64,000 nt of DNA from Pyrinomonadaceae bacterium. GTDB taxonomy: Bacteria > Acidobacteriota > Blastocatellia > Pyrinomonadales > Pyrinomonadaceae. The translations under genes and the position numbers were made by a program. Below the pieces are notes generated by a model. That model saw nothing but the letters and a program-made list of their open reading frames with translations. It had not been told where the DNA came from and did no database searches. The stretch lies in the NCBI GenBank assembly GCA_963702045.1, contig OY969701.1, forward strand, positions 3,886,452 through 3,950,451. Reading direction: 5' to 3'. This document shows positions 7,422 to 29,442 of the stretch, in pieces; the stretch's first letter is position 1; every line of letters begins with the position of its first letter.

Positions 7422-7510
7422 ATGTCAGATGCTAGATGTCGGATGTTAGATGTTGGTCTCGGTAGTCGTTCATTTCGAACTGATATCTAACATCTAACAT
7501 CCAACATCTG
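7422..7510. repeat. Family F hairpin with heptamer-repeat arms, copy 1 of 2
   Basis: Left arm is five tandem ATGYYRG units (7422..7456). Right arm is three to four complementary CYRRCAT units (about 7481..7507). The related element is at 9490..9615. Confidence 0.85.
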
Positions 7511-7526
7511 CTCCTGAATCGCCGTT

Positions 7527-9489: not shown

Positions 9490-9615
9490 AGATGTCAGAT
9501 GTTGTCGGATGTCGGAACGGCAGATGTTTGATGCTGGATGTTAGATGTTGACGAAAGTAGGGGTCAGGTCCGGTTCTTCTTTTACTGACATCTAACATCT
9601 GACTTCCAACATCTA
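9490..9615. repeat. Family F hairpin with heptamer-repeat arms, copy 2 of 2
   Basis: Left arm is eight GATGYYR units with two phase breaks. Right arm is four complementary YRRCATC units. The loop is unrelated to copy 1. Confidence 0.85.
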
Positions 9616-9616
9616 C

Positions 9617-10240
9617 TTAGCTCGTTGGACGCAGCAATCCGCGGAAAATTCCCTGGACTGAAACCTGCGACGCGGGAAGGCGCATCGGCGCGAGGCGTGA
9701 GTTTGCCGGCCGCAGCTCAACGGTCGAACCAAACCGGAAAAGACGTTTCAACGTAGCGCGAGTACCATCAACCAAAGCGACAACGATCTCGCCGTCGCGA
9801 GCTTCGGTTCGATTCTCGATCAGCGCGATATCGCCGTCGCAAATATGTTCGTCGATCATCGAATCGCCGCTGACTCGCAACGCATAAACTCTTTCCGGAC
9901 GTACTCGACCGAGCAGAAATCGCGGGACAGAGATCGGCTCGCTGTCCTCGATCGCCTCGATCGGAGCACCGGCGGCAATTCTTCCCAGCAACTGAACTTC
10001 ACAGATCGCGTCTGAAGAAACTTCTTCGACTTTTACCGCCAGACCGAACGCACCATCCGCCCTGTGTCGCGAGAGCAATCCGCGTTTTTCCAACGCCGCA
10101 ATATGTTTGGCGATCGTCGCTTTTGATTTGACGTTGAAGAAGCGAGCGATCTGGGCATACGAGGGTTCGTAGCCGTGACGTTCGATGAAACTCGATATGT
10201 AATCCAGAATCTCTTTCTGGCGTTGTGTGCGTGGAAGCAT
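9617..10240 (-). CDS. lexA: LexA repressor (S24 peptidase)
   Basis: Winged-helix N-terminus (QKEILDYISSFIERHGYEPSYAQIARFF), cleavage-region AAG, catalytic VSGDSM and a downstream TLKR Lys motif. 207 aa. Confidence 0.93.
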   Translation of the reverse strand: MLPRTQRQKEILDYISSFIERHGYEPSYAQIARFFNVKSKATIAKHIAALEKRGLLSRHRADGAFGLAVKVEEVSSDAICEVQLLGRIAAGAPIEAIEDSEPISVPRFLLGRVRPERVYALRVSGDSMIDEHICDGDIALIENRTEARDGEIVVALVDGTRATLKRLFRFGSTVELRPANSRLAPMRLPASQVSVQGIFRGLLRPTS

Positions 10241-15420: not shown

Positions 15421-15644
15421 AGGGGTTTTCTCCTTTACTGGATGATTGGAAGCTCGCGACGTTGCAGGTGATGAAGGTCGTTGCGAAATCCGGCCGGCAG
15501 GAACGGTTGAAGGTCCTTCTTGATCTTTAGTCGGAACCGGTTTTTTCCAGAAGGCTAATCACTCGCTCGGTGAAGTCGCGCCAGCCCAAAACGATCGTGA
15601 GCATCGCTGTAGTTGATGCGGCCCGCTTACAGAGATCGACGACT

Positions 15645-15740
15645 GGTAAATAGTGAATGGTAAATGGTAAATAGAAGGTTCAGTGATCGCTCGGCGCTAT
15701 TTTCCATTTACCATTCACTATTTACGATTCACCATTTACC
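15645..15740. repeat. Family G hairpin with heptamer-repeat arms
   Basis: Left arm GGTAAAT AGTGAAT GGTAAAT GGTAAAT. Right arm has six complementary ATTYACY units. Single copy in this window. Confidence 0.85.
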
Positions 15741-21549: not shown

Positions 21550-22372
21550 GCTTTCTGTAAGAACTCAGGAGTCAGAAGTCAGGAGTCAGAATAAGAACTC
21601 TGGTAGGCTTGCCTCCTGTGTTCTGTCTCCTGACTTCTGTCTCCTGCCTTTCAGCTTTCTGTAAGAACTCAGGAGTCAGAAGTCAGGAATCAGAATAAGA
21701 ACTCTGGTAGGCTTGCCTCCTGTGTTCTGTCTCCTGACTTCTGTCTCCTGACTTCTGTCTCCTGACTTCTGTCTCCTGCTTTTCAGCTTTCTGTAAGAAC
21801 TCAGGAGTCAGAATAAGAACTCTGGTAGGCTTGCCTCCTGTGTTCTGTCTCCTGACTTCTGTCTCCTGCTTTTCAGCTTTCTGTAAGAACTCAGGAGTCA
21901 GGAGTCAGAATAAGAACTCTGGTAGGCTTGCCTCCTGTGTTCTGTCTCCTGACTTCTGTCTCCTGCTTTTCAGCTTTCTGTAAGAACTCAGGAGTCAGAA
22001 GTCAGGAATCAGAATAAGAACTCTGGTAGGCTTGCCTCCTGTGTTCTGCCTCCTGACTTCTGTCTCCTGTTTTTCAGCTTTCTGTAAGAACTCAGGAGTC
22101 AGGAATCAGAATAAGAACTCTGGTAGGCTTGCCTCCTGTGTTCTGTCTCCTGACTTCTGTCTCCTGCTTTTCAGCTTTCTGTAAGAACTCAGGAGTCAGG
22201 AATCAGAATAAGAACTCTGGTAGGCTTGCCTCCTGTGTTCTGTCTCCTGACTTCTGTCTCCTGCTTTTCAGCTTTCTGTAAGAACTCAGGAGTCAGGAAT
22301 CAGAATAAGAACTCTCGTAGGCTTGCCTCCTGTGTTCTGTCTCCTGACTTCTGTCTCCTGCTTTTTCAGCTT
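21550..22372. repeat. tandem array of 8 hairpin units (Family H, heptamer-repeat arms)
   Basis: Units start at 21550, 21654, 21786, 21876, 21973, 22077, 22174 and 22271, with lengths 104, 132, 90, 97, 104, 97, 97 and 98. Each unit is GCTTTCTGTAAGAACTC + (AGRAGTC)n + loop ATAAGAACTCTGGTAGGCTTGCCTCCTGTG + (TTCTGTC TCCTGAC)n + TGCTTTTCA. Confidence 0.95.
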
Positions 22373-24018
22373 TTTCCCAACGTGAACGAATTTAGAATCA
22401 TCGGCAGCTCCCCTTTGACGCCGACATCGTCAACGCTTTGGAGTTCGGGAGCCAACGACGTGGTTAGCATGTAGAGCGTCACGCCTTTTGAATTGTTTTC
22501 ATCTCCGGGAGGCAGGTAAACGACACGACCCCAAATGTTCATGTCACTCCCGTCCGGTCCCGCCGAGATTGCCTTGAAGCGAACTTCGTATCCTTCGATC
22601 CCGTTGATCGTGGTCTTGCCTTCCGAAACCTTCTGATATTCCGGTAACGTCTTCGAGTAATTCTCGTCCAATGCCTTGATCAGGTCCGGCAGTCGTCCGG
22701 CCAGGTCGGCTTCAATCGTGCCTTTGCTGTCGTACCAGCTAACGGCCAGATCTTCCTGCGTTTTATCTGGCGGAAGCCGTCGCTCGACTTCCACGAAATT
22801 GGCGGCGCCGGGCACTCCGGCTTTGGGACTTTTTTGCCACGACTGCGGATAGTAGAAATAGAAATCAACGTAGTGCTCGGCAAGTTTTCCGTCCAGCGTG
22901 TCCTTCGTGTTTTCAAACTTGATCGAACCCGGCGGAGCATCCGGCACTTTTACCGCTTGCGTCGGGGACGGGCTGGCGGCGACGTTCGCGTTGCGATTGT
23001 TATTAATAGTTGGATCGACGGTTACAACTCCGCCGTCGTCTTTCGGCGCCTTGTTACGAATAAAGATGAAGTACGCACCCACTCCTCCGGCGATCAAAAG
23101 CAAGAGAACGAGGACGCCGCCAACCGCCAGAACCAATCCGAGCTTCGATTTTTTTTGCGGCGCCGCGGGCGGCTGATTGATCGGGCCCGTCGTTGGCGTC
23201 GTTGGCGTCGTGGGCGTCGTGGGCGTCGTGGGCGTCGTTGGCGTCGTGGGCGCCGAGGGCTGTGCAGCGGATTGCGGACCCAGCTGCTGACTAAACTGGC
23301 TGTCAAAAGTCGGGGTTTCGCGGTGTGATTCGCGCGAAGCGTCCATCGGTCCCGTTTGGAACGGCGCTCCGGTGGTGGGTGGAAGCGGCGGTGGAGCAGG
23401 CGGAGTCGGCGGCGCCATCATCGTCGGAAATTGCTGCGGCGGCGGAGATTGCGGCGGTGGAGATTGCCTCGGCGGCTCGGCTGCCGGTGGCTCTTCCGAA
23501 CGCAGTGGCGGCAATGGCTGCGAAAGCCTTGTTGTCTGTTGCTGCAGACCCTTGGTTTCTCCCGACGGACCAAAAGTGCTCGTGCCCAACAGCGTAGGCG
23601 CCGACGAAGGCGACACAGGAGGTTGTTGTTGTGAAGGCGGTTGTTGGGGCGGCTGAGCCTGTTGCGGAGGCGGAGGCGGTTGCTGTGGTGGCTGAGCCTG
23701 TTGCGGAGGCGCCGGTTGTTGCGGCTGCGGCGGCTGTGCTTGTTGCGGAGGCTGTGGTTGTGGCGGCTGCGGCTGTGGGGGCGTCGAGGGCAATGGTCCT
23801 GCAATCGTTGCGTTTAGGTCTTGCGGTCGCTCGGCCGGCTGTCGCGGAGCCGGCGGCGTTGTCGGAATATCCAAATTCGAGAGATGCCCCTGAACAGTAG
23901 CATTCGGATCAAAAACCTGCGGCCGTTCAAAATCCGGCACCAGCCTTCCGCCGTCGTGCGTACAGAACTTCTGCATGTCGTCCTGATAACTGCGATTACA
24001 TTTCGGGCAACGAAGCAT
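22366..24018 (-). CDS. zinc-ribbon, Pro/Gln-rich single-pass membrane protein with a C-terminal extracytoplasmic domain
   Basis: N-terminus MLRCPKCNRSYQDDMQKFCTHDGGRL, about 270 aa of P/Q low complexity including a (PTT)n tract, TM segment LGLVLAVGGVLVLLLLIAGGVGAYFIFI, and a C-terminal domain of about 220 aa of normal composition. Confidence 0.75.
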   Translation of the reverse strand: MLRCPKCNRSYQDDMQKFCTHDGGRLVPDFERPQVFDPNATVQGHLSNLDIPTTPPAPRQPAERPQDLNATIAGPLPSTPPQPQPPQPQPPQQAQPPQPQQPAPPQQAQPPQQPPPPPQQAQPPQQPPSQQQPPVSPSSAPTLLGTSTFGPSGETKGLQQQTTRLSQPLPPLRSEEPPAAEPPRQSPPPQSPPPQQFPTMMAPPTPPAPPPLPPTTGAPFQTGPMDASRESHRETPTFDSQFSQQLGPQSAAQPSAPTTPTTPTTPTTPTTPTTPTTGPINQPPAAPQKKSKLGLVLAVGGVLVLLLLIAGGVGAYFIFIRNKAPKDDGGVVTVDPTINNNRNANVAASPSPTQAVKVPDAPPGSIKFENTKDTLDGKLAEHYVDFYFYYPQSWQKSPKAGVPGAANFVEVERRLPPDKTQEDLAVSWYDSKGTIEADLAGRLPDLIKALDENYSKTLPEYQKVSEGKTTINGIEGYEVRFKAISAGPDGSDMNIWGRVVYLPPGDENNSKGVTLYMLTTSLAPELQSVDDVGVKGELPMILNSFTLGKS

Positions 24019-25393: not shown

Positions 25394-28189
25394 TCAAGGT
25401 TCACGGACAAGACGAAATCCGAGCAGATCATTCTTCGTCGTCGGCACTATCCAATCCCGATACGTATTGGAAATCGGTTTATTGCCGCGCGAATCACTGG
25501 CCAACGAGCCGCCGCGTATGATTGCCCAGGTTCGGTGGGCCGGGATTATCGTCAGCTTGCTGCCCGGGTAGTACGAAGCTGTCGACGATGTCCACTCCCA
25601 AACATTGCCTATCATATCGAGGTGGCCCCACTTTGCCTTACCTTCCGGAAACGATCCAACCGGTTGGACCGAAGCGAATCCCGCGTCCTTGATAGCCGCC
25701 CGACCGCTGGCCCATGTATTTCCCCATGGATAAAGATTGCCTTCATCGCCGCCACGCGCGGCGTATTCCCATTCCTCTTCAGTCGGAAGCCGGTACTTAA
25801 CTCCGTCGCGCTTTGAACGCCATTCAGCGAACGCATTCGCATCGGCCAGTGACACATCGGTAACCGGCCATCGCTCCTGGCCTTCAACTGGTTTTTTCCC
25901 GGCCCAGTTTGAAGGCGGGGTGCGCTCTGTGGCCGCTACAAACTCCGCGTACTCGCCGTTGGTGACTTCAGTCTTGTCCATGGAGAATTCGCCGACCTGA
26001 ACCTGGTGCGGCGGACCTTCCTGCACCAGCTTGCCCGCGCGTCCCATTTGAAATGGACCGCCCGGAACGCTGATCAATTCGGACACGTAGTTTTCTACCA
26101 CAGGAGGCTGCGAACGATTTTCACGGGGCCGGACCCGACCCGATGGATTGGCTACAACCGGAGGCTTCGTGACTACCGTTCCTCCTGATTGCCTGAATTT
26201 CAAATACGCCCCGACGCCACCGCCGACCAGTAACACTATACCGATTATCGCTGCCGCAATTCGAAATGAATTCGATTTCTTGCCCTGAACTTCAACCGCT
26301 TCATATCCAATCACCGATCTCCCCGCAACACCGCCCATAGTTTCCGACGCCCGCGCCGGAGTTTGTGCAGGAGGAACCTGGTCTTTTCCGTACATCGACT
26401 GCGTCACGACGCCTTGTCGCTGGTCCTGCGTCGATTCCAGGTTTAGAGGAACCACCAGCGTGTCATCTATCGAAGCAGCGACACTCTGCGGCTCGATAGG
26501 TTCGCGCTCTTTGCTGTCTTCGCGGACAAGCTTTTCTCGCTCGGACCTCTCGCGGGCTTCCTGCTCTTCAACGGCCAGAAGCGGCGCGCTGTCCTGCGCG
26601 CCCGTTATAGACTTAGACCTATCATCTTCCGCTACGCCACCGCGCGTTCTTGTTTCCGCTCGTTGGCGCTCACTAGCTTCGTGAAGCCGCGCCGCGTCGG
26701 TTTCGGCACGTTGGCGCTCGTCGGCTTCGACCTGGACCTTGGCGGCCTGCGCTTCTGCTTTGCGCCGCGTCTCTTCATCTGCTTTGCGTTGTGATTCTTC
26801 GTCAGCCAGTCGACGAGCTTCCTCGCGCTGTCGCGCCGCATCTTCTTCCTCACGCTGTCGCGCCGCATCTTCTTCCTCGCGCTGTCGCGCGGCTAGTTCG
26901 TCTGCCTTCTGCTTCGCTTCCGCTTGGGCCTTTAGCCGCGCTTCTTCTTCGCGCGCCAATTCCTCACGAGCAACACGGTCTTTCGCTTCCTGATCGAGCC
27001 GTTCCTGTTCGCGTCTTTGCGCTTCCGCCGCCTGCCGAGCCCGCTCTTCGAGTAAGTCGGCCTGAGCCCGCAATCGTTTGGCTTCCATCGACGCAGCGCT
27101 TTGTTCGTGAGCGTAATCCTCGAGCGAATTGGAAAGTCCGCCCAGACTCTGGAAACTGGTAGGCGGGATGGTCGGTGGCGCGGCTGACGTTACAAGCGTC
27201 GCCGAGTCCAAGCTGTACGGATCTTCGTAAGTAGTAGCCAGCGCGCGCGTAGCACTGCCAACCGCCTCGCGAAGCTCCTGAACAAAAACGTCGACCGACG
27301 CCGGTCGATCCGCGGCCTCTTTTTCCAACGCGTGACGAACAGCCGCTTCGATCTGCGCGGGAATTTGAACTCCCATTTCGCTGAACGTAGGCGGTTCCAA
27401 TGTCAGGTGCTTTTTCATGATCGACGGAATCGACGTACCCTTGAACGGAACGTCGCCGCCGAGCATTTGATACATGATCACACCCAAACTGTAGATGTCG
27501 GCTTTTCCATCCGGCTCTTCATCCGACCATTGCTCCGGAGCCATGTAAAAAGGCGATCCCATCAGCCCGCTCGTCTTCGCCTGTACAAAAGAACCGAGCA
27601 GCTCGCCGGACTTTATCTTCGCCAAACCGAAGTCAAGAATCTTCAGTCCCTCGGCGATCGGAAGACCGTTCTGAATCATTATGTTCAGCGGCTTCAAGTC
27701 CCTGTGCACGATGTTCTGCCGATGCGCGGCGGCGACCCCGGCGCCGATCGCGGAGATCAGCTCCAGAGCTCGCGCGGGCGGCAGAGATTTTTCCGCGGCG
27801 AGAATGTCGTGCAGCGAACGACCCTCGACAAACTCCATCACCAGGAACGGCATGGTGCCGCGCACGACTCCAAAATCGGTTACGGAAATGATGTTTTGAT
27901 GGCGAATCGCAGCGGCGGCCAACGCTTCCTGACGAAAACGCGTGACCAGCATCGGATCGTTGCCGACCAGGTCCGGAAGAATGACTTTTATCGCGTGTGA
28001 AGTTTTGAGGAAGATGTGCCGCGCCTTGAAAACAACACCCATTCCGCCGTGTCCCAAACGCGTTTCCAGTTGGTAACGACCGTCCAGCATCGGCTCGCCC
28101 GCGATCGAGTGCGTCGTAGCATCACCGTCATTCGGACAGTGATTCACGTGATCGGGATAACAACGCCTACAAGCCGGACATTCTTTCAT
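25394..28189 (-). CDS. Ser/Thr protein kinase with N-terminal zinc ribbon, coiled coil, TM helix and C-terminal FGE-sulfatase (SUMF1-like) domain
   Basis: MKECPACRRCYPDHVNHCPNDGD. Hanks motifs GHGGMGVVF, AIKVI, HRDLKPLNIM, DFGLAK and YMAPE. Glu/Arg/Ala-rich coiled coil, TM segment IAAAIIGIVLLVGGGVGAY, and an FGE-like end (MDKTEVTNGEYAEF, EEEWEYAARGG, GNVWEWT, RGGS). Confidence 0.95.
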   Translation of the reverse strand: MKECPACRRCYPDHVNHCPNDGDATTHSIAGEPMLDGRYQLETRLGHGGMGVVFKARHIFLKTSHAIKVILPDLVGNDPMLVTRFRQEALAAAAIRHQNIISVTDFGVVRGTMPFLVMEFVEGRSLHDILAAEKSLPPARALELISAIGAGVAAAHRQNIVHRDLKPLNIMIQNGLPIAEGLKILDFGLAKIKSGELLGSFVQAKTSGLMGSPFYMAPEQWSDEEPDGKADIYSLGVIMYQMLGGDVPFKGTSIPSIMKKHLTLEPPTFSEMGVQIPAQIEAAVRHALEKEAADRPASVDVFVQELREAVGSATRALATTYEDPYSLDSATLVTSAAPPTIPPTSFQSLGGLSNSLEDYAHEQSAASMEAKRLRAQADLLEERARQAAEAQRREQERLDQEAKDRVAREELAREEEARLKAQAEAKQKADELAARQREEEDAARQREEEDAARQREEARRLADEESQRKADEETRRKAEAQAAKVQVEADERQRAETDAARLHEASERQRAETRTRGGVAEDDRSKSITGAQDSAPLLAVEEQEARERSEREKLVREDSKEREPIEPQSVAASIDDTLVVPLNLESTQDQRQGVVTQSMYGKDQVPPAQTPARASETMGGVAGRSVIGYEAVEVQGKKSNSFRIAAAIIGIVLLVGGGVGAYLKFRQSGGTVVTKPPVVANPSGRVRPRENRSQPPVVENYVSELISVPGGPFQMGRAGKLVQEGPPHQVQVGEFSMDKTEVTNGEYAEFVAATERTPPSNWAGKKPVEGQERWPVTDVSLADANAFAEWRSKRDGVKYRLPTEEEWEYAARGGDEGNLYPWGNTWASGRAAIKDAGFASVQPVGSFPEGKAKWGHLDMIGNVWEWTSSTASYYPGSKLTIIPAHRTWAIIRGGSLASDSRGNKPISNTYRDWIVPTTKNDLLGFRLVREP

Positions 28190-28458
28190 GGGTTGGTTCG
28201 ATCCAGAGGCACCCGCCCGTTACCTGCGCGGGCAACATTATGATCGGGGGGCAGCCTGAGTTTTTCACCAGCAAGCAAGTATTTGGGTTTGCCTGCCGAG
28301 AACTTTCCACGCGGTGTCAGGCGCTAGCCTTAAGCGACAGCGGCTGCCAGACGGTACGAAAGGAATTAGCATGAATCCGCGCGAAAACGATTTTAGCTAC
28401 CTTCTCTCTGTCAATCAAGTAATAAGCCTTTCGCGGCCTTTAGTATCAGAAACATAGC

Positions 28459-28748
28459 GGGGGAAGGGGTCAGGGGTCGGGGGTCGGGGGCCGGGGGCCG
28501 GGGGTCGGGGGCCGGGGGACGGGGGCCGGGGGCCGGGGGCCGGGTTTTGGGTTTTGGGTTTTGGGTTTTGGGTTTTCAGATTTTGGTTCGATGTTCTGAA
28601 ATCTCAAATTGGAATCTGGCCCTCCGACCCCCGACCCCCAGCCCCCGTCCCCCGGCCCCCGACCCCTGCCCCCCGTCCCCCGTCCCCCGTCCCCCTGCCC
28701 CCCGTCCCCCGACCCCCAGCCCCCCTCCCTCCCCTCTTCCCTCTTCTG
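28459..28748. repeat. G-run / C-run heptamer palindrome (Family I)
   Basis: Plus strand: about a dozen GGGGNCR heptamers (28459..28541), five GGGTTTT units (28542..28576), a spacer of about 40 nt, then at least 15 C4-6 runs in CCCCCNN heptamers (28619..28748). It ends 13 nt before the ATG at 28762. Confidence 0.9.
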
Positions 28749-28761
28749 CTATCCTTCCTCC

Positions 28762-29442
28762 ATGACCGTACTCGAGGCCTATCGCGGGCGGGACTTTATC
28801 GGAGTGGAAGAGCTATCAACCACCGCGGCCGCGCTCGTCGAGGGTTATCAACGAGCCCCGATCCGCGGAAGCGTGCGTCTGGCAATCACCCCGCGAATTG
28901 TCCGCCACTACCTGGGAGAAGACCTGCTGGGTGAAACAACCGGATTGGCAGGAACTTCGATCGTCTTCAATTACGGAAACCTGCTCCGCCTTTTGGCCGT
29001 GAAGAAACTACTCGCGGACAACTGGTCGCTGGCAAAGATCCGTGGGTTCATGTCGACACTCGACATAACGGCCCTCGAGGAGCTCGTCAATAGCGCGTTG
29101 TCACCGGCTGCTGAAATCGAACTCGACAATGAAACGGAAACGGCAAACAGCCGTGAGCTGAACATCAAACCCGCGCAACGCCGGCTTCCGGATACTTCTC
29201 CAACAGTCGCGCCTCTGTTTGCTGCAAAGGCGTCCATGCCGTCGCCGCCCACGCCATTGGCTTCGCTTGTCATCGAATCAGCTCGCCGCGCCGAACGGTC
29301 GGCGGCGGAATGGGTCGAGATCGCGACCGGTTTGGAAGTGAAGGTGCGCCGCAGCTTTCGCCCGCCGCAAACCGAAGAAGAACTCGAGAAGATCCAGGCT
29401 CGCTTTTGGGCGGTGATAAGCAAGAAAGAAGAAGGCGAGTGA
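28762..29442 (+). CDS. MerR-like helix-turn-helix protein (tentative)
   Basis: Start placed at the first ATG after the C-rich arm. ITPRIVRHYLGEDLLGE...VFNYGNLLRLLAVKKLLADNWSLAKIRGFM resembles the MerR recognition helix, wing and dimerisation helix. The acidic/Ala-rich C-terminus is unassigned. Confidence 0.5.
   Translation: MTVLEAYRGRDFIGVEELSTTAAALVEGYQRAPIRGSVRLAITPRIVRHYLGEDLLGETTGLAGTSIVFNYGNLLRLLAVKKLLADNWSLAKIRGFMSTLDITALEELVNSALSPAAEIELDNETETANSRELNIKPAQRRLPDTSPTVAPLFAAKASMPSPPTPLASLVIESARRAERSAAEWVEIATGLEVKVRRSFRPPQTEEELEKIQARFWAVISKKEEGE

What the first reader, a model, noticed from the sequence alone, without database searches (positions are those of the whole stretch)
28459..28748. 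Giant G-run / C-run palindrome with a telomere-like core, in the divergent promoter region between the kinase and a MerR-like gene
The plus strand carries 13 runs of G4-5 spaced by 2-3 nt, then (GGGTTTT)x5, a spacer of about 40 nt, and then at least 15 runs of C4-6. The region can form a very long imperfect hairpin or cruciform. Alternatively it can form G-quadruplexes on the plus strand (left arm) and on the minus strand (right arm), with i-motifs opposite. It ends 13 nt before the ATG of a MerR-like regulator, so it would form the 5' UTR or promoter of that gene, and it lies about 270 nt upstream of the kinase gene. MerR-family proteins act by distorting promoter DNA, so a structure-switching element at this position is suggestive. 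If translated from the TTG at 28609, the C-arm would instead add a Pro-rich N-terminal extension.
Basis: partly seen in the sequence, partly recalled or inferred. Interest (0 to 1): 0.65.

Follow-up and report, generated by a model that had tools for sequence, protein, structure and literature searches.

The report
Giant heptamer-repeat palindrome between two promoters
The 290-base G-run/C-run palindrome is real, but it is an oversized member of a class of 7-base-repeat hairpins found in many gaps between genes in this family of soil acidobacteria, and it sits in a fast-changing spacer between two back-to-back promoters rather than being a conserved regulatory switch.

Summary
Window 28459-28748 holds 12 G4-5 runs of period 7, then (GGGTTTT)x5, a 43-nt AT-rich centre, then 15 C4-6 runs of period 7. 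The arms are inverted and G4Hunter scores are about +2.1 and -2.3.

The organism is a Pyrinomonadaceae-like acidobacterium. Period-7 arrays dominate its non-coding repeats. Most are inverted pairs with a G-rich 5' arm and a C-rich 3' arm (34 of 34 informative pairs), typically with 37-nt arms. This element has the same design but is three times longer.

It lies between two promoters inferred from conservation:
- a minus-strand TTGATT-17-TAAAAT promoter with a roughly 195-nt conserved leader for the kinase gene;
- an extended -10 (TGcTATCCT) placed 6 nt before a leaderless ATG of the MerR-like gene.

The spacer between them is hypervariable among orthologues (19 to about 390 nt). The two closest relatives have identical flanks but different G/T-rich heptamers and no C arm. 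The Pro-rich extension is refuted, and the MerR-distortion idea has no support.

Best reading: a slippage-expanded heptanucleotide microsatellite pair, of the same kind as the convergent G-rich heptamer repeats of Xanthomonas. It is prone to non-B DNA structures but has no conserved regulatory role. The class itself (dispersed families, strict polarity, nesting) deserves study.

The parts
28459..28541 (+). Left arm: 12 heptamer units GGGGG(Y/A)C. The G-rich strand is the + strand.
   Evidence: Period 7, 91% matches. G4Hunter +2.07. GC 0.90.
28542..28576 (+). (GGGTTTT)x5, a perfect second heptamer array nested inside the left arm. It has no AAAACCC partner on the right.
   Evidence: 100% matches. 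Relatives L001/L002 carry GGTTTTA/GGGTTTT arrays at the same place.
28577..28619 (.). AT-rich centre and loop. Together with the GGGTTTT array the centre has GC 0.40. It contains a small inner inverted repeat, 28567-28580 / 28595-28608.
   Evidence: I19; GC of centre; inner helix in the MFE structure.
28620..28748 (+). Right arm: about 15 heptamer units CCCCC(GA/GT/GG/AG/TG). The G-rich strand is the - strand. It decays into CT-rich sequence at 28719-28748 and overlaps the -35 zone of the downstream promoter.
   Evidence: Period 7, 81% matches. G4Hunter -2.32. GC 0.82.
28747..28755 (+). Putative extended -10 (TGcTATCCT) of the MerR-like gene, 6 nt before the ATG, implying a leaderless mRNA.
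   Evidence: Conserved position of TATAnT 6 nt before the ATG in most orthologous loci. The window, L001 and L002 share cTGCTATCCT. Inference only; no transcript data.
28762..29442 (+). MerR-like HTH protein, 226 aa. The true start is ATG 28762.
28390..28418 (-). Putative sigma-70-type promoter of the kinase gene, TTGATT-17-TAAAAT. The G arm begins 40 nt upstream of its -35.
   Evidence: scanner. Both hexamers are conserved across 27 orthologous loci while the spacer varies.
28190..28383 (-). Conserved leader of about 195 nt upstream of the kinase gene. It is not part of the repeat but defines the element's left boundary.
   Evidence: The leader is about 190-240 nt in the loci where the MKECP start was found, with conserved blocks. 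No Rfam match.
25394..28189 (-). Ser/Thr protein kinase fused to an FGE-sulfatase domain, 931 aa.
   Evidence: Pkinase 1.8e-41, FGE-sulfatase 1.9e-52. Synteny kept in L001 and L004.

Best explanation
The element is an over-expanded inverted pair of heptanucleotide microsatellite arrays. It is the largest and most G/C-rich member seen here of a class of heptamer-repeat hairpins that occupy about a fifth of intergenic spacers in Pyrinomonadaceae genomes. In that class the G-rich arm is always 5' and the C-rich arm 3'.

It fills the gap between two back-to-back promoters. One is the kinase promoter on the minus strand. The other is an extended -10, leaderless promoter for the MerR-like gene. The element is therefore most likely not transcribed from either promoter.

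That gap is free to vary. In this lineage, short G-rich and C-rich seeds already present in the nearest relatives were amplified unit by unit, by slipped-strand mispairing within each arm, to about 12 and 15 copies. In the same subclade (window, L001, L002) the ancestral -35 box and dyad of the MerR-like promoter are missing.

The element has no conserved, sequence-specific regulatory role. Any effect is passive and strain-specific. It sets the spacing of the two promoters and removes the A/T-rich upstream and -35 region. Because it lies where divergent transcription accumulates negative supercoils and has an AT-rich centre, it is prone to extrude a cruciform or fold G4/i-motif structures.

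Shown: the anatomy, class membership, hypervariability, promoter conservation and start codon. Inferred: slippage as the mechanism, the non-transcribed status, and any non-B DNA formation in vivo.
For: Period 7 on both arms and in the core.

The same window holds other inverted heptamer pairs with different units, at 7422-7512, 9493-9618 and 15642-15740, plus 8 tandem hairpin units at 21550-22373. All fold stably.

Across 692 kb of orthologous Pyrinomonadaceae loci, period 7 is the dominant period that is not a multiple of three: 121 arrays, against 1-19 for periods 4, 5, 8, 10, 11 and 13.

36 inverted pairs were found. 34 of 34 informative pairs have the G-rich arm on the left and the C-rich arm on the right (p about 1e-10). 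Median arms are 37 and 38 nt, against 130 and 112 nt here.

The two promoters are conserved while the core between them ranges from 19 to about 390 nt.

The flanks of the window, L001 and L002 are identical up to ...CATAGCGGGGG and from CTTCTGCTATCCT..ATG, while the interior is unalignable and L001/L002 lack a C arm.

The arms are not mirror copies. The spacers between G runs are mostly CC or TC on the left, whereas the right arm is mostly GT or GA. Neighbouring units are identical in runs (CC CC CC; GT GT GT), which is the signature of local tandem duplication.

The ancestral TTGACAACAGGTATTGT is absent from the whole window.

Independent assemblies of a relative reproduce its array with 1 difference in 1036 nt.

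Published precedent: G-rich heptamer repeats in Xanthomonas and Nostoc, with 70-75 convergent inverted pairs, length and sequence variation between close relatives, G4 formation in vitro, and no function found (PMC4692102). Heptamers are also the commonest long SSR class in prokaryotes (Mrazek 2007, as summarised in PMC4679880).
Against: Both arms expanded in the same lineage, which hints at coupling by selection for pairing or by arm-to-arm templating.

Typical class members are true palindromes with mirrored unit variants, and one orthologue (L017) shows a two-base compensatory change at this very site. So pairing matters, at least for the class.

The kinase/MerR-like site carries heptamer arrays in 12 of 35 orthologous loci, against 3 of 43 other divergent spacers (Fisher p = 0.003; the loci are not phylogenetically independent). 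This could mean the hairpin is favoured there.

Promoters and the leaderless start are inferred from conservation only. There is no RNA data.

Copy number in the window could not be verified with reads.
Confidence: 0.6

Rival explanations
1. Structure-switching promoter element. Negative supercoiling or K+ would drive cruciform, G-quadruplex or i-motif formation between the divergent promoters, and this would tune transcription of the MerR-like gene and/or the kinase.
For: Very high G4Hunter scores on opposite strands of the two arms. Hairpin free energy far beyond shuffles. An AT-rich centre (GC 0.40) between GC 0.90 and 0.82 arms, which would ease extrusion. Location between divergent promoters. 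Related G-rich heptamers form G4 and i-motif structures in vitro (PMC4692102). Heptamer arrays are enriched at this site relative to other divergent spacers.
Against: The structure is not conserved. The closest relatives have no C arm and only weak G runs. One orthologue has a 19-nt core and others use heptamers with no G4 potential. The orthologous promoter has an optimal 17-nt spacer, so nothing suggests MerR-type distortion. No experimental evidence of any kind is available.
Confidence: 0.15
2. RNA-level element. The array would be transcribed from an unrecognised upstream promoter or by read-through, and would act as a long dsRNA hairpin. Possible roles are a 5'-UTR regulator or RNase III substrate, as for the heptamer SSR upstream of Haemophilus influenzae hmw1A, or a bidirectional insulator or terminator.
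For: Class members mostly sit directly after stop codons, either 8-22 nt before the next start or between convergent stops. They fold as stems of about 35 bp. Compensatory changes keep pairing in relatives. Because of the G-to-C polarity, transcripts from either direction meet the same kind of hairpin. Precedent: the hmw1A (ATCTTTC)n hairpin with RNase III processing (PMC12721329).
Against: The element lies between two 5' ends. The conserved -10 to ATG geometry argues for a leaderless mRNA starting downstream of it. The scanner found no + strand promoter upstream. A canonical U tract is absent here and is present in only 13 of 36 class members. No RNA runs were found.
Confidence: 0.12
3. Copy of a mobile or otherwise dispersed palindromic element (REP/REPIN/MITE-like) that landed in a permissive spacer and then expanded. 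This is compatible with the best explanation as to origin.
For: Other heptamer hairpin families keep the same order of unit variants at different sites and in different genomes. Examples are GATTGCG-GAATGCG-GATTTCG-GATTGCG in L012, L013, L040 and L027, and the right arm CATCCCTCATCCCTCCGCCCTCATCCCT, seen complete in L015, L025, L026 and L027 (L019 has a variant). Hairpins are nested inside one another, as in L040 10740-10875, L029 5214-5357 and L026 14291-14449. Different families occupy the same orthologous site. A soil contig of similar GC content has the same GGGGTCA/GGGGTCG unit as an inverted pair right after a stop codon (L096). G5 arrays flank a 23S_rRNA_IVP gene in L092.
Against: There is no second G5/C5 copy in the 64-kb window or in the 46 related loci. 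No target-site duplication or transposase link was seen. The arms of this element are not mirror copies. Of 102 evaluable G5 arrays in metagenome contigs, only 3 have a convergent partner.
Confidence: 0.25
4. Assembly artefact, such as a fold-back chimera or mis-assembled low-complexity sequence.
For: The tract cannot be checked against reads. Short-read soil contigs break at it. G and C homopolymer lengths are error-prone in long reads (general knowledge).
Against: Both flanks are intact and collinear with relatives that carry heptamer arrays at exactly the same boundaries. The arms are imperfect and differ in unit composition, unlike a fold-back artefact. A relative's array is reproduced by two independent assemblies. 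The class is seen in dozens of MAGs from different projects.
Confidence: 0.04
5. The C arm is coding and adds a Pro-rich N-terminal extension from TTG 28609.
For: An open frame runs from 28609 to 29442.
Against: All homologues start at the Met corresponding to 28762 and have a conserved N-terminus. None carries such an extension. The upstream DNA is unalignable even between 86-89% identical orthologues. A conserved promoter sits where the extension would be.
Confidence: 0.01

Closest known systems
G-rich heptameric simple sequence repeats of Xanthomonas (GGGAATC) and Nostoc (GGGGAYT), including convergent inverted pairs (Rehm et al. 2015, PMC4692102)
   Same: The unit is 7 nt with a G tract. 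The arrays are tandem and intergenic. Pairs have the G-rich strand on + and then on - (convergent), so they can form either a stem-loop or G4/i-motif structures. Copy number and sequence differ between close relatives while the flanking genes are conserved. No function is known.
   Different: The phylum differs (Acidobacteriota). The tract is G5 rather than G3-4. There are 12 to 15 units per arm, against a mode of 4. The element lies between divergent genes, a position under-represented in Xanthomonas. The host family uses many different heptamer units rather than one.
Long heptanucleotide SSRs of prokaryotes (Mrazek et al. 2007, as summarised in PMC4679880) and cyanobacterial STRR heptamers (Mazel et al. 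1990, recalled from memory)
   Same: Heptamers are the over-represented long SSR class, mostly non-coding. The proposed origin is polymerase slippage.
   Different: Those surveys describe direct arrays. The strict inverted pairing, the G-to-C polarity and the dispersed families with a fixed order of variants seen here were not found in the papers I could read.
Haemophilus influenzae hmw1A (ATCTTTC)n heptamer SSR (PMC12721329)
   Same: It is a heptamer array next to a promoter that pairs with a G-rich partner arm to make a long hairpin. Repeat number changes expression.
   Different: The hmw array is transcribed in the 5' UTR, is cleaved by RNase III and controls a surface adhesin in a pathogen. 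Here the geometry suggests the array is upstream of both start sites, and the neighbouring genes encode a regulator and a kinase.
REP/BIME/REPIN elements and their RAYT transposases (PMC3733652, PMC3116915)
   Same: These are dispersed intergenic imperfect palindromes, often just after stop codons, sometimes clustered or nested. Proposed roles are in supercoiling, termination and mRNA stability.
   Different: REPs are 20-40 nt, have no internal 7-nt periodicity, and carry GTAG or CGTC tags linked to a Y1 transposase. None of this was shown here.
Promoter-proximal phase-variable SSRs of host-adapted pathogens (for example the Moraxella uspA1/uspA2 tracts cited in PMC4679880)
   Same: An SSR lies adjacent to or overlapping promoter elements, so that copy-number change could alter expression.
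   Different: Those units are 1-5 nt, the genes encode surface structures, and switching has been shown within clones. Here the unit is 7 nt, the host is a free-living soil bacterium, and no within-population variation could be measured.

Membership tests
Heptanucleotide long SSR / G-rich heptamer repeat (Rehm 2015; Mrazek 2007) | Head-to-tail tandem copies of a 7-nt unit, more than expected by chance | tested here: met
   TRF gives period 7 x11.3, x5 and x15. The period scan finds 7 and 14 enriched while periods 4-6, 8, 10 and 11 are absent. The run pattern occurs 37 times against 0 expected.
Heptanucleotide long SSR / G-rich heptamer repeat (Rehm 2015; Mrazek 2007) | At least four consecutive G tracts of 3 or more (G4-capable) | tested here: met
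   12 G>=4 runs on the + strand and 15 on the - strand. G4Hunter +2.07 and -2.32.
Heptanucleotide long SSR / G-rich heptamer repeat (Rehm 2015; Mrazek 2007) | Non-coding location | tested here: met
   The start codon was fixed by a 24-sequence alignment. The kinase start was fixed by the conserved MKECPAC N-terminus.
Heptanucleotide long SSR / G-rich heptamer repeat (Rehm 2015; Mrazek 2007) | Convergent inverted pair (G-rich on +, then G-rich on -) | tested here: met
   The polarity is the same in 34 of 34 informative pairs in related loci.
Heptanucleotide long SSR / G-rich heptamer repeat (Rehm 2015; Mrazek 2007) | Length and sequence variation between close relatives with conserved flanks | tested here: met
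   Three-way alignment of the window, L001 and L002.
Heptanucleotide long SSR / G-rich heptamer repeat (Rehm 2015; Mrazek 2007) | K+-dependent quadruplex and acid-stabilised i-motif formation in vitro | not testable with these tools
   Requires CD spectroscopy and thermal melts.
REP/BIME/REPIN | Short (20-40 nt) palindrome present in many near-identical dispersed copies | tested here: not met
   The arms are 112-130 nt. There is no second G5/C5 copy in the window or in 46 related loci. Other heptamer families in relatives are dispersed.
REP/BIME/REPIN | GTAG or CGTC tag and association with a RAYT (Y1) transposase | not tested
   This needs whole genomes. Only 64 kb plus 20-kb loci were available.
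Intrinsic (Rho-independent) terminator | Compact GC-rich stem-loop followed by a U tract, downstream of a 3' end | tested here: not met
   The element lies between two 5' ends. The stem exceeds 100 nt and there is no T run after it. The scanner lists no terminator there.
MerR-type activated promoter | Overlong 19-20 bp spacer between -35 and -10 carrying a dyad operator | tested here: not met
   Orthologous promoters have a 17-nt spacer (18 nt in a few). The window lineage has no -35 or dyad at all.
Phase-variable promoter SSR (contingency locus) | SSR overlapping or abutting promoter elements | tested here: met
   The C array runs through the -35 zone up to the extended -10. The promoter itself is inferred.
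Phase-variable promoter SSR (contingency locus) | Copy-number heterogeneity within a population, linked to expression switching | not testable with these tools
   No reads span the tract and there are no RNA runs.
Telomeric repeat | Located at the end of a linear replicon | tested here: not met
   The tract is internal to a 5.71-Mb contig with conserved genes on both sides.

The most novel reading that the evidence does not exclude
The heptamer hairpins of Pyrinomonadaceae may be an undescribed system of dispersed palindromic elements rather than passive microsatellites. The features that point this way are families with a fixed order of unit variants shared between sites and species, an invariant polarity (G-rich arm 5', C-rich arm 3'), nesting of one hairpin in the loop of another, and repeated occupation of the same spacer by different families. 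These suggest a dedicated process that makes, copies or maintains them. Candidates are a hairpin-recognising transposase, RNA/RNase III-dependent repeat dynamics as at H. influenzae hmw1A, or 3'-end extension followed by fold-back synthesis. On this reading the G5/C5 element would be a runaway member that acts as a supercoil-driven cruciform/G4 insulator between two divergent promoters.
Probability: 0.2. Interest if true: 0.7.

Novelty: new member of a known kind. Interest (0 to 1): 0.4.

Why it matters
For the finding itself the result is deflationary. This eye-catching G4/cruciform candidate is a lineage-specific expansion in a hypervariable spacer, not a conserved switch tied to MerR biology. 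It is still one of the longest natural bacterial G5/C5 inverted arrays seen here. It lies exactly where divergent transcription should concentrate negative supercoils, so it would be a good natural substrate for testing the competition between cruciform and G4 formation.

The wider point is that roughly a fifth of intergenic spacers in this poorly studied soil family carry heptamer-repeat hairpins with a strict polarity and family structure. This bears on two long-standing puzzles: why 7-nt repeats are the favoured long SSR in bacteria, and what they do.

Tried and rejected
1. Rfam at gathering and at permissive thresholds gave only a tRNA-Thr elsewhere in the window and sub-threshold microRNA-hairpin look-alikes on the palindrome. 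No known RNA family matches.

2. Read support. Two soil metagenome runs hold related sequence, but their contigs stop at the arrays. They only show that GGGTTTT arrays are very abundant in those soils. No RNA runs were found.

3. Intrinsic-terminator reading. T runs after several orthologous hairpins turned out to be the ...TTTTGACA -35 box of the conserved promoter. A flank census found at least 4 T in 8 nt in only 13 of 36 hairpins.

4. A + strand sRNA in the conserved 270 nt that would be terminated by the hairpin. This was rejected because a minus-strand promoter with conserved hexamers and a variable spacer precedes a leader of about 190-240 nt that ends at the kinase ATG.

5. Covariation in that leader. 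RNAalifold gave only 15 pairs with almost no covariation term, so this is unresolved.

6. A search of all fetched loci for the same locus among the metagenome G5 hits found none beyond L001-L003.

7. A literature search for heptamer repeats in Acidobacteria found nothing.

8. NCBIfam gave no match for the MerR-like protein.
Full report
OBSERVATION. From 28459 there are 12 units in strict 7-nt register: GGGGGAA, GGGGTCA, then GGGGG followed by TC, CC or AC. Then come five perfect GGGTTTT units (28542-28576), a 43-nt spacer, and from 28620 about 15 units of CCCCC plus two bases, decaying into CT-rich sequence that ends 13 nt before the ATG at 28762. Everything else matches. The run pattern G4-N3-G4-N3-G4 occurs 37 times in the 64-kb window, all inside this element, against none in 100 shuffles. 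The arms are inverted: 122 nt at 70% complementarity, with a best stretch of 78 nt at 86%. As a single strand the region folds to -109.8 kcal/mol as DNA (z = -8.0) and -223.2 kcal/mol as RNA (z = -10.1). My G4Hunter implementation gives +2.07 over the left arm and -2.32 over the right arm, far above the usual 1.5 threshold.

ORGANISM AND NEIGHBOURS. The window has 52-59% GC. The left gene (25394-28189, minus strand) encodes a Ser/Thr kinase fused to an FGE-sulfatase domain. The right gene (28762-29442) encodes a 226-aa protein with a marginal MerR_1 HTH match (22.3 bits, cut-off 21.6). It also has weak profile matches to GlnR and to a MerR-family regulator in the PDB. Its 293 homologues come from Pyrinomonadaceae and other Acidobacteriota, and the window's own contig is 5.71 Mb. 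All 24 aligned homologues start at the same Met with a conserved N-terminus, which removes the proposed Pro-rich extension from TTG 28609.

THE ELEMENT IS ONE OF A CLASS. TRF on the whole window showed other period-7 arrays arranged as inverted pairs with quite different units. AGATGTT/AACATCT occurs at 7422-7512 and again at 9493-9618. TGGTAAA/ATTTACC occurs at 15642-15740. AGGAGTC/AGAAGTC hairpins are repeated eight times in tandem at 21550-22373, and all fold stably. A simple periodicity scan found 12 segments of period 7 and none of period 4, 5, 6, 8, 10 or 11. I then fetched 42 orthologous loci from Pyrinomonadaceae and other Acidobacteriota MAGs, using an alignment of the MerR-like protein as query. 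In 692 kb, period 7 gave 121 arrays and period 14 gave 73, against 1-19 for the other periods that are not multiples of three. Of 131 arrays at a slightly looser threshold, at least 72 form inverted pairs. In 34 of 34 informative pairs the left arm is G-rich and the right arm is C-rich, which means that on either strand the 5' arm is the G-rich one (p about 1e-10). Median arms are 37 and 38 nt with a 24-nt loop, against 130 and 112 nt here. With crude gene calls, most pairs fill tight gaps. They lie a few bases after the stop of one gene and 8-22 nt before the start of the next, or between two convergent stops. About 17% of intergenic spacers of at least 40 nt carry an array.

WHERE THE ELEMENT SITS. 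Just upstream of the ATG, most of the 41 orthologous loci listed read TTGACA, then a 17-nt spacer (consensus acaggtattgtgaagaa; 18 nt in a few), then TATAnT, then 6 nt, then ATG. This is a near-consensus sigma-70 promoter whose start site would coincide with the ATG, giving a leaderless mRNA. The spacer contains a conserved partial dyad (ACAAC..ATTGT) that is a plausible operator. The window and its two nearest relatives keep only cTGcTATCCT plus 6 nt plus ATG, which is an extended -10. The TTGACA box and the dyad are gone from the whole window, and C-rich sequence takes their place. On the other side, the scanner found TTGATT-17-TAAAAT on the minus strand at 28418-28390. Both hexamers are conserved in 27 loci while the spacer between them varies. 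A leader of about 190-240 nt follows, in the loci where the start was found cleanly, and ends at the conserved kinase start MKECPAC. The heptamer element therefore lies between two back-to-back promoters. It starts 40 nt upstream of one -35 and runs into the -35 zone of the other. Both promoters are inferred from conservation. No RNA data exist for this organism.

THE SPACER IS HYPERVARIABLE. The distance between the kinase -10 and the MerR-like ATG ranges from 90 to 464 nt among orthologues. The core between the promoters is 19 nt in L034. It is a heptamer hairpin of an unrelated unit in L009, L010, L017, L023, L033, L040, L043 and L044. Elsewhere it holds other long hairpins or unstructured sequence. 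The two closest relatives (86% and 89% protein identity) are decisive. Their DNA is identical to the window up to ...CATAGCGGGGG on the left and from CTTCTGCTATCCT on the right. In between, L001 has about 160 nt and L002 about 290 nt of G/T-rich heptamers (GGTTTTA, GGTCTTT, GCTTTGC), a small central hairpin, and only a short C-rich patch (ctgcccccatcccccgcc). There is no C arm and hence no palindrome. L002's array is reproduced by an independent Logan assembly with one difference in 1036 nt, so such arrays are not assembly noise. The giant G5/C5 arms are therefore a recent expansion from short seeds. The arms are not mirror images. The spacers between G runs are mostly CC and TC on the left, while the right arm is mostly GT and GA, with some AG and TG that have no partner. 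Identical units sit side by side. That is what local tandem duplication by slippage within each arm produces, and not what copying one arm from the other would produce.

WHAT IT PROBABLY DOES. I commit to the reading that this is a slippage-expanded heptanucleotide microsatellite pair in a non-transcribed, freely evolving spacer, with no conserved sequence-specific function (confidence about 0.6). Its consequences are passive. It separates the two promoters by 354 bp. It fills the upstream and -35 region of the MerR-like promoter with C-rich DNA. It places a very GC-rich inverted repeat (GC 0.90 and 0.82) with an AT-rich centre (GC 0.40) exactly where, by the twin-domain model, divergent transcription builds negative supercoils. 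Cruciform extrusion or G4/i-motif folding is therefore physically plausible, but this is inference only.

Three things argue for something more than neutrality. Both arms expanded in the same lineage. Typical class members are true palindromes, and L017 shows a two-base compensatory change at this very site. This site carries arrays in 12 of 35 orthologues against 3 of 43 other divergent spacers (p = 0.003, not corrected for shared ancestry). I therefore keep three rivals open: a structure-switch reading (0.15), an RNA-level reading (0.12) and a dispersed or mobile-element origin (0.25, compatible with the main reading).

COMPARISON WITH WHAT IS KNOWN. The nearest published relative is the G-rich heptamer repeat of Xanthomonas (GGGAATC) and Nostoc (GGGGAYT). 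These are intergenic arrays of 2-26 units. There are 70-75 convergent inverted pairs per Xanthomonas genome. Length and sequence vary between close relatives, G4 and i-motif structures form in vitro, the repeats are under-represented between divergent genes, and no function was identified (PMC4692102). Heptamers are the commonest long SSR in prokaryotes and have been ascribed to polymerase slippage (Mrazek 2007, as summarised in PMC4679880). A functional precedent for a heptamer array that forms a hairpin with a G-rich partner is H. influenzae hmw1A. There the array is transcribed, is cut by RNase III, and needs the hairpin for its copy number to change (PMC12721329). The present element meets every sequence-level criterion of the Xanthomonas-type class. 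It fails the tests for terminator, MerR-type promoter, REP and telomere (see the membership table).

A metagenome scan showed that (GGGGGYC) arrays of five or more units are widespread, in at least 120 contigs with GC 0.42-0.81. Their median length is 42 nt, and only 3 of 102 evaluable arrays have a convergent partner. The size and pairing of this one are therefore unusual, but its unit is not. One of the three (L096, GC 0.57) has GGGGGTCAGGGGTCAGGGGTCGGGG directly after a stop codon, opposite nine CCCCCGA units. This is the same unit as the left end of the window element.

WHAT REMAINS STRANGE. The class is not a set of independent microsatellites. Families keep the same order of unit variants at different sites and in different species. 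GATTGCG-GAATGCG-GATTTCG-GATTGCG appears in four genomes. The right arm CATCCCTCATCCCTCCGCCCTCATCCCT appears complete in four genomes, with a variant in a fifth. GTCGGTGGTCAGTTAAAAG...CTTTAACTGACCAC appears in several more. Hairpins are nested in the loops of others. The G-to-C polarity is absolute. I found no paper describing this in Acidobacteria. Whether a transposase, an RNA-dependent process or selection on dsRNA stems maintains them cannot be decided from 20-kb fragments.

VERDICT. The feature is real, striking and statistically extreme. It belongs to a known kind, the inverted G-rich heptamer SSR pair. Interest is moderate (0.4), mainly because of the class it reveals.

Noticed in passing
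window 7422-7512, 9493-9618, 15642-15740: Three further inverted heptamer-repeat hairpins: units AGATGTT/AACATCT (twice) and TGGTAAA/ATTTACC. They lie in intergenic gaps and fold at -32 to -40 kcal/mol as RNA (z -3 to -7.7). The TGGTAAA/AGTGAAT unit recurs in other genomes (L033, L029).
   Followed up: partly
window 21550-22373: Eight tandem copies of a 97-104-nt unit fill the gap between two minus-strand genes. Each unit is itself a heptamer hairpin (AGGAGTC/AGAAGTC arms, -42 kcal/mol). This looks like a BIME-style cluster of the same element class. The same unit forms the inter-promoter hairpin in L043.
   Followed up: partly
window 28190-28383 (minus strand) and orthologous loci: A leader of about 190-240 nt lies between a conserved promoter and the kinase-FGE gene. 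It has strongly conserved blocks (GCGCGG, GGCAGC, GGCTGCCC..CCCG, GGGCGGGC, GGATCGAGCCGAC just before the ATG) and a variable hairpin showing compensatory changes by eye. It has no Rfam match, and RNAalifold gave no convincing consensus. It may be an undescribed cis-regulatory RNA.
   Followed up: partly
orthologous loci L005-L044, -36 to -1 of the MerR-like ATG: There is a near-invariant leaderless promoter TTGACA-acaggtattgt..-TATAnT-6 nt-ATG with a partial dyad ACAAC/ATTGT in the spacer, probably an autoregulatory operator. It has been lost in the window, L001 and L002, which keep only an extended -10.
   Followed up: partly
L012:1126, L013:7732, L040:9868, L027:6941 and 7940; L015:4465, L019:1132, L025:5726, L026:14291, L027:2247; L010 (3 sites), L017, L018, L043: Heptamer hairpins form dispersed families whose order of unit variants is the same at different sites and in different species. 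The loops often begin with an A run and end with a T run. This behaviour is REP/MITE-like rather than that of a simple microsatellite.
   Followed up: partly
L040:10740-10875, L029:5214-5357, L026:14291-14449, L032:10684-10865: These are nested hairpins, in which a hairpin of one heptamer family sits in the loop of a hairpin of another family. L040's inner hairpin is G-rich (GGGGATA GGGGGAA GGGTGTA) and is a short relative of the window element.
   Followed up: no
L092:1530-1969 (metagenome contig Ga0247727_10000302): Inverted G5/C5 heptamer arrays about 370 nt apart flank a small gene for a 23S rRNA-intervening-sequence protein (Pfam PF05635, E = 8e-37). This suggests that such arrays can bracket a cassette.
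   Followed up: partly
window 28502-28609 in soil runs X1 and X2: Depth over the GGGTTTT array is 80-127, against about 5 on the flanks, with many different flanking sequences. (GGGTTTT)n arrays are therefore very common in these soil communities.
   Followed up: no
window 23188-23260, 23635-23782 and 26818-26890: Repeats with periods that are multiples of three lie inside the ORFs 22366-24018 (9-nt unit x8, and 39/42-nt units x3) and the kinase gene (27-nt unit x2.7). They are presumably coding repeats.
   Followed up: no
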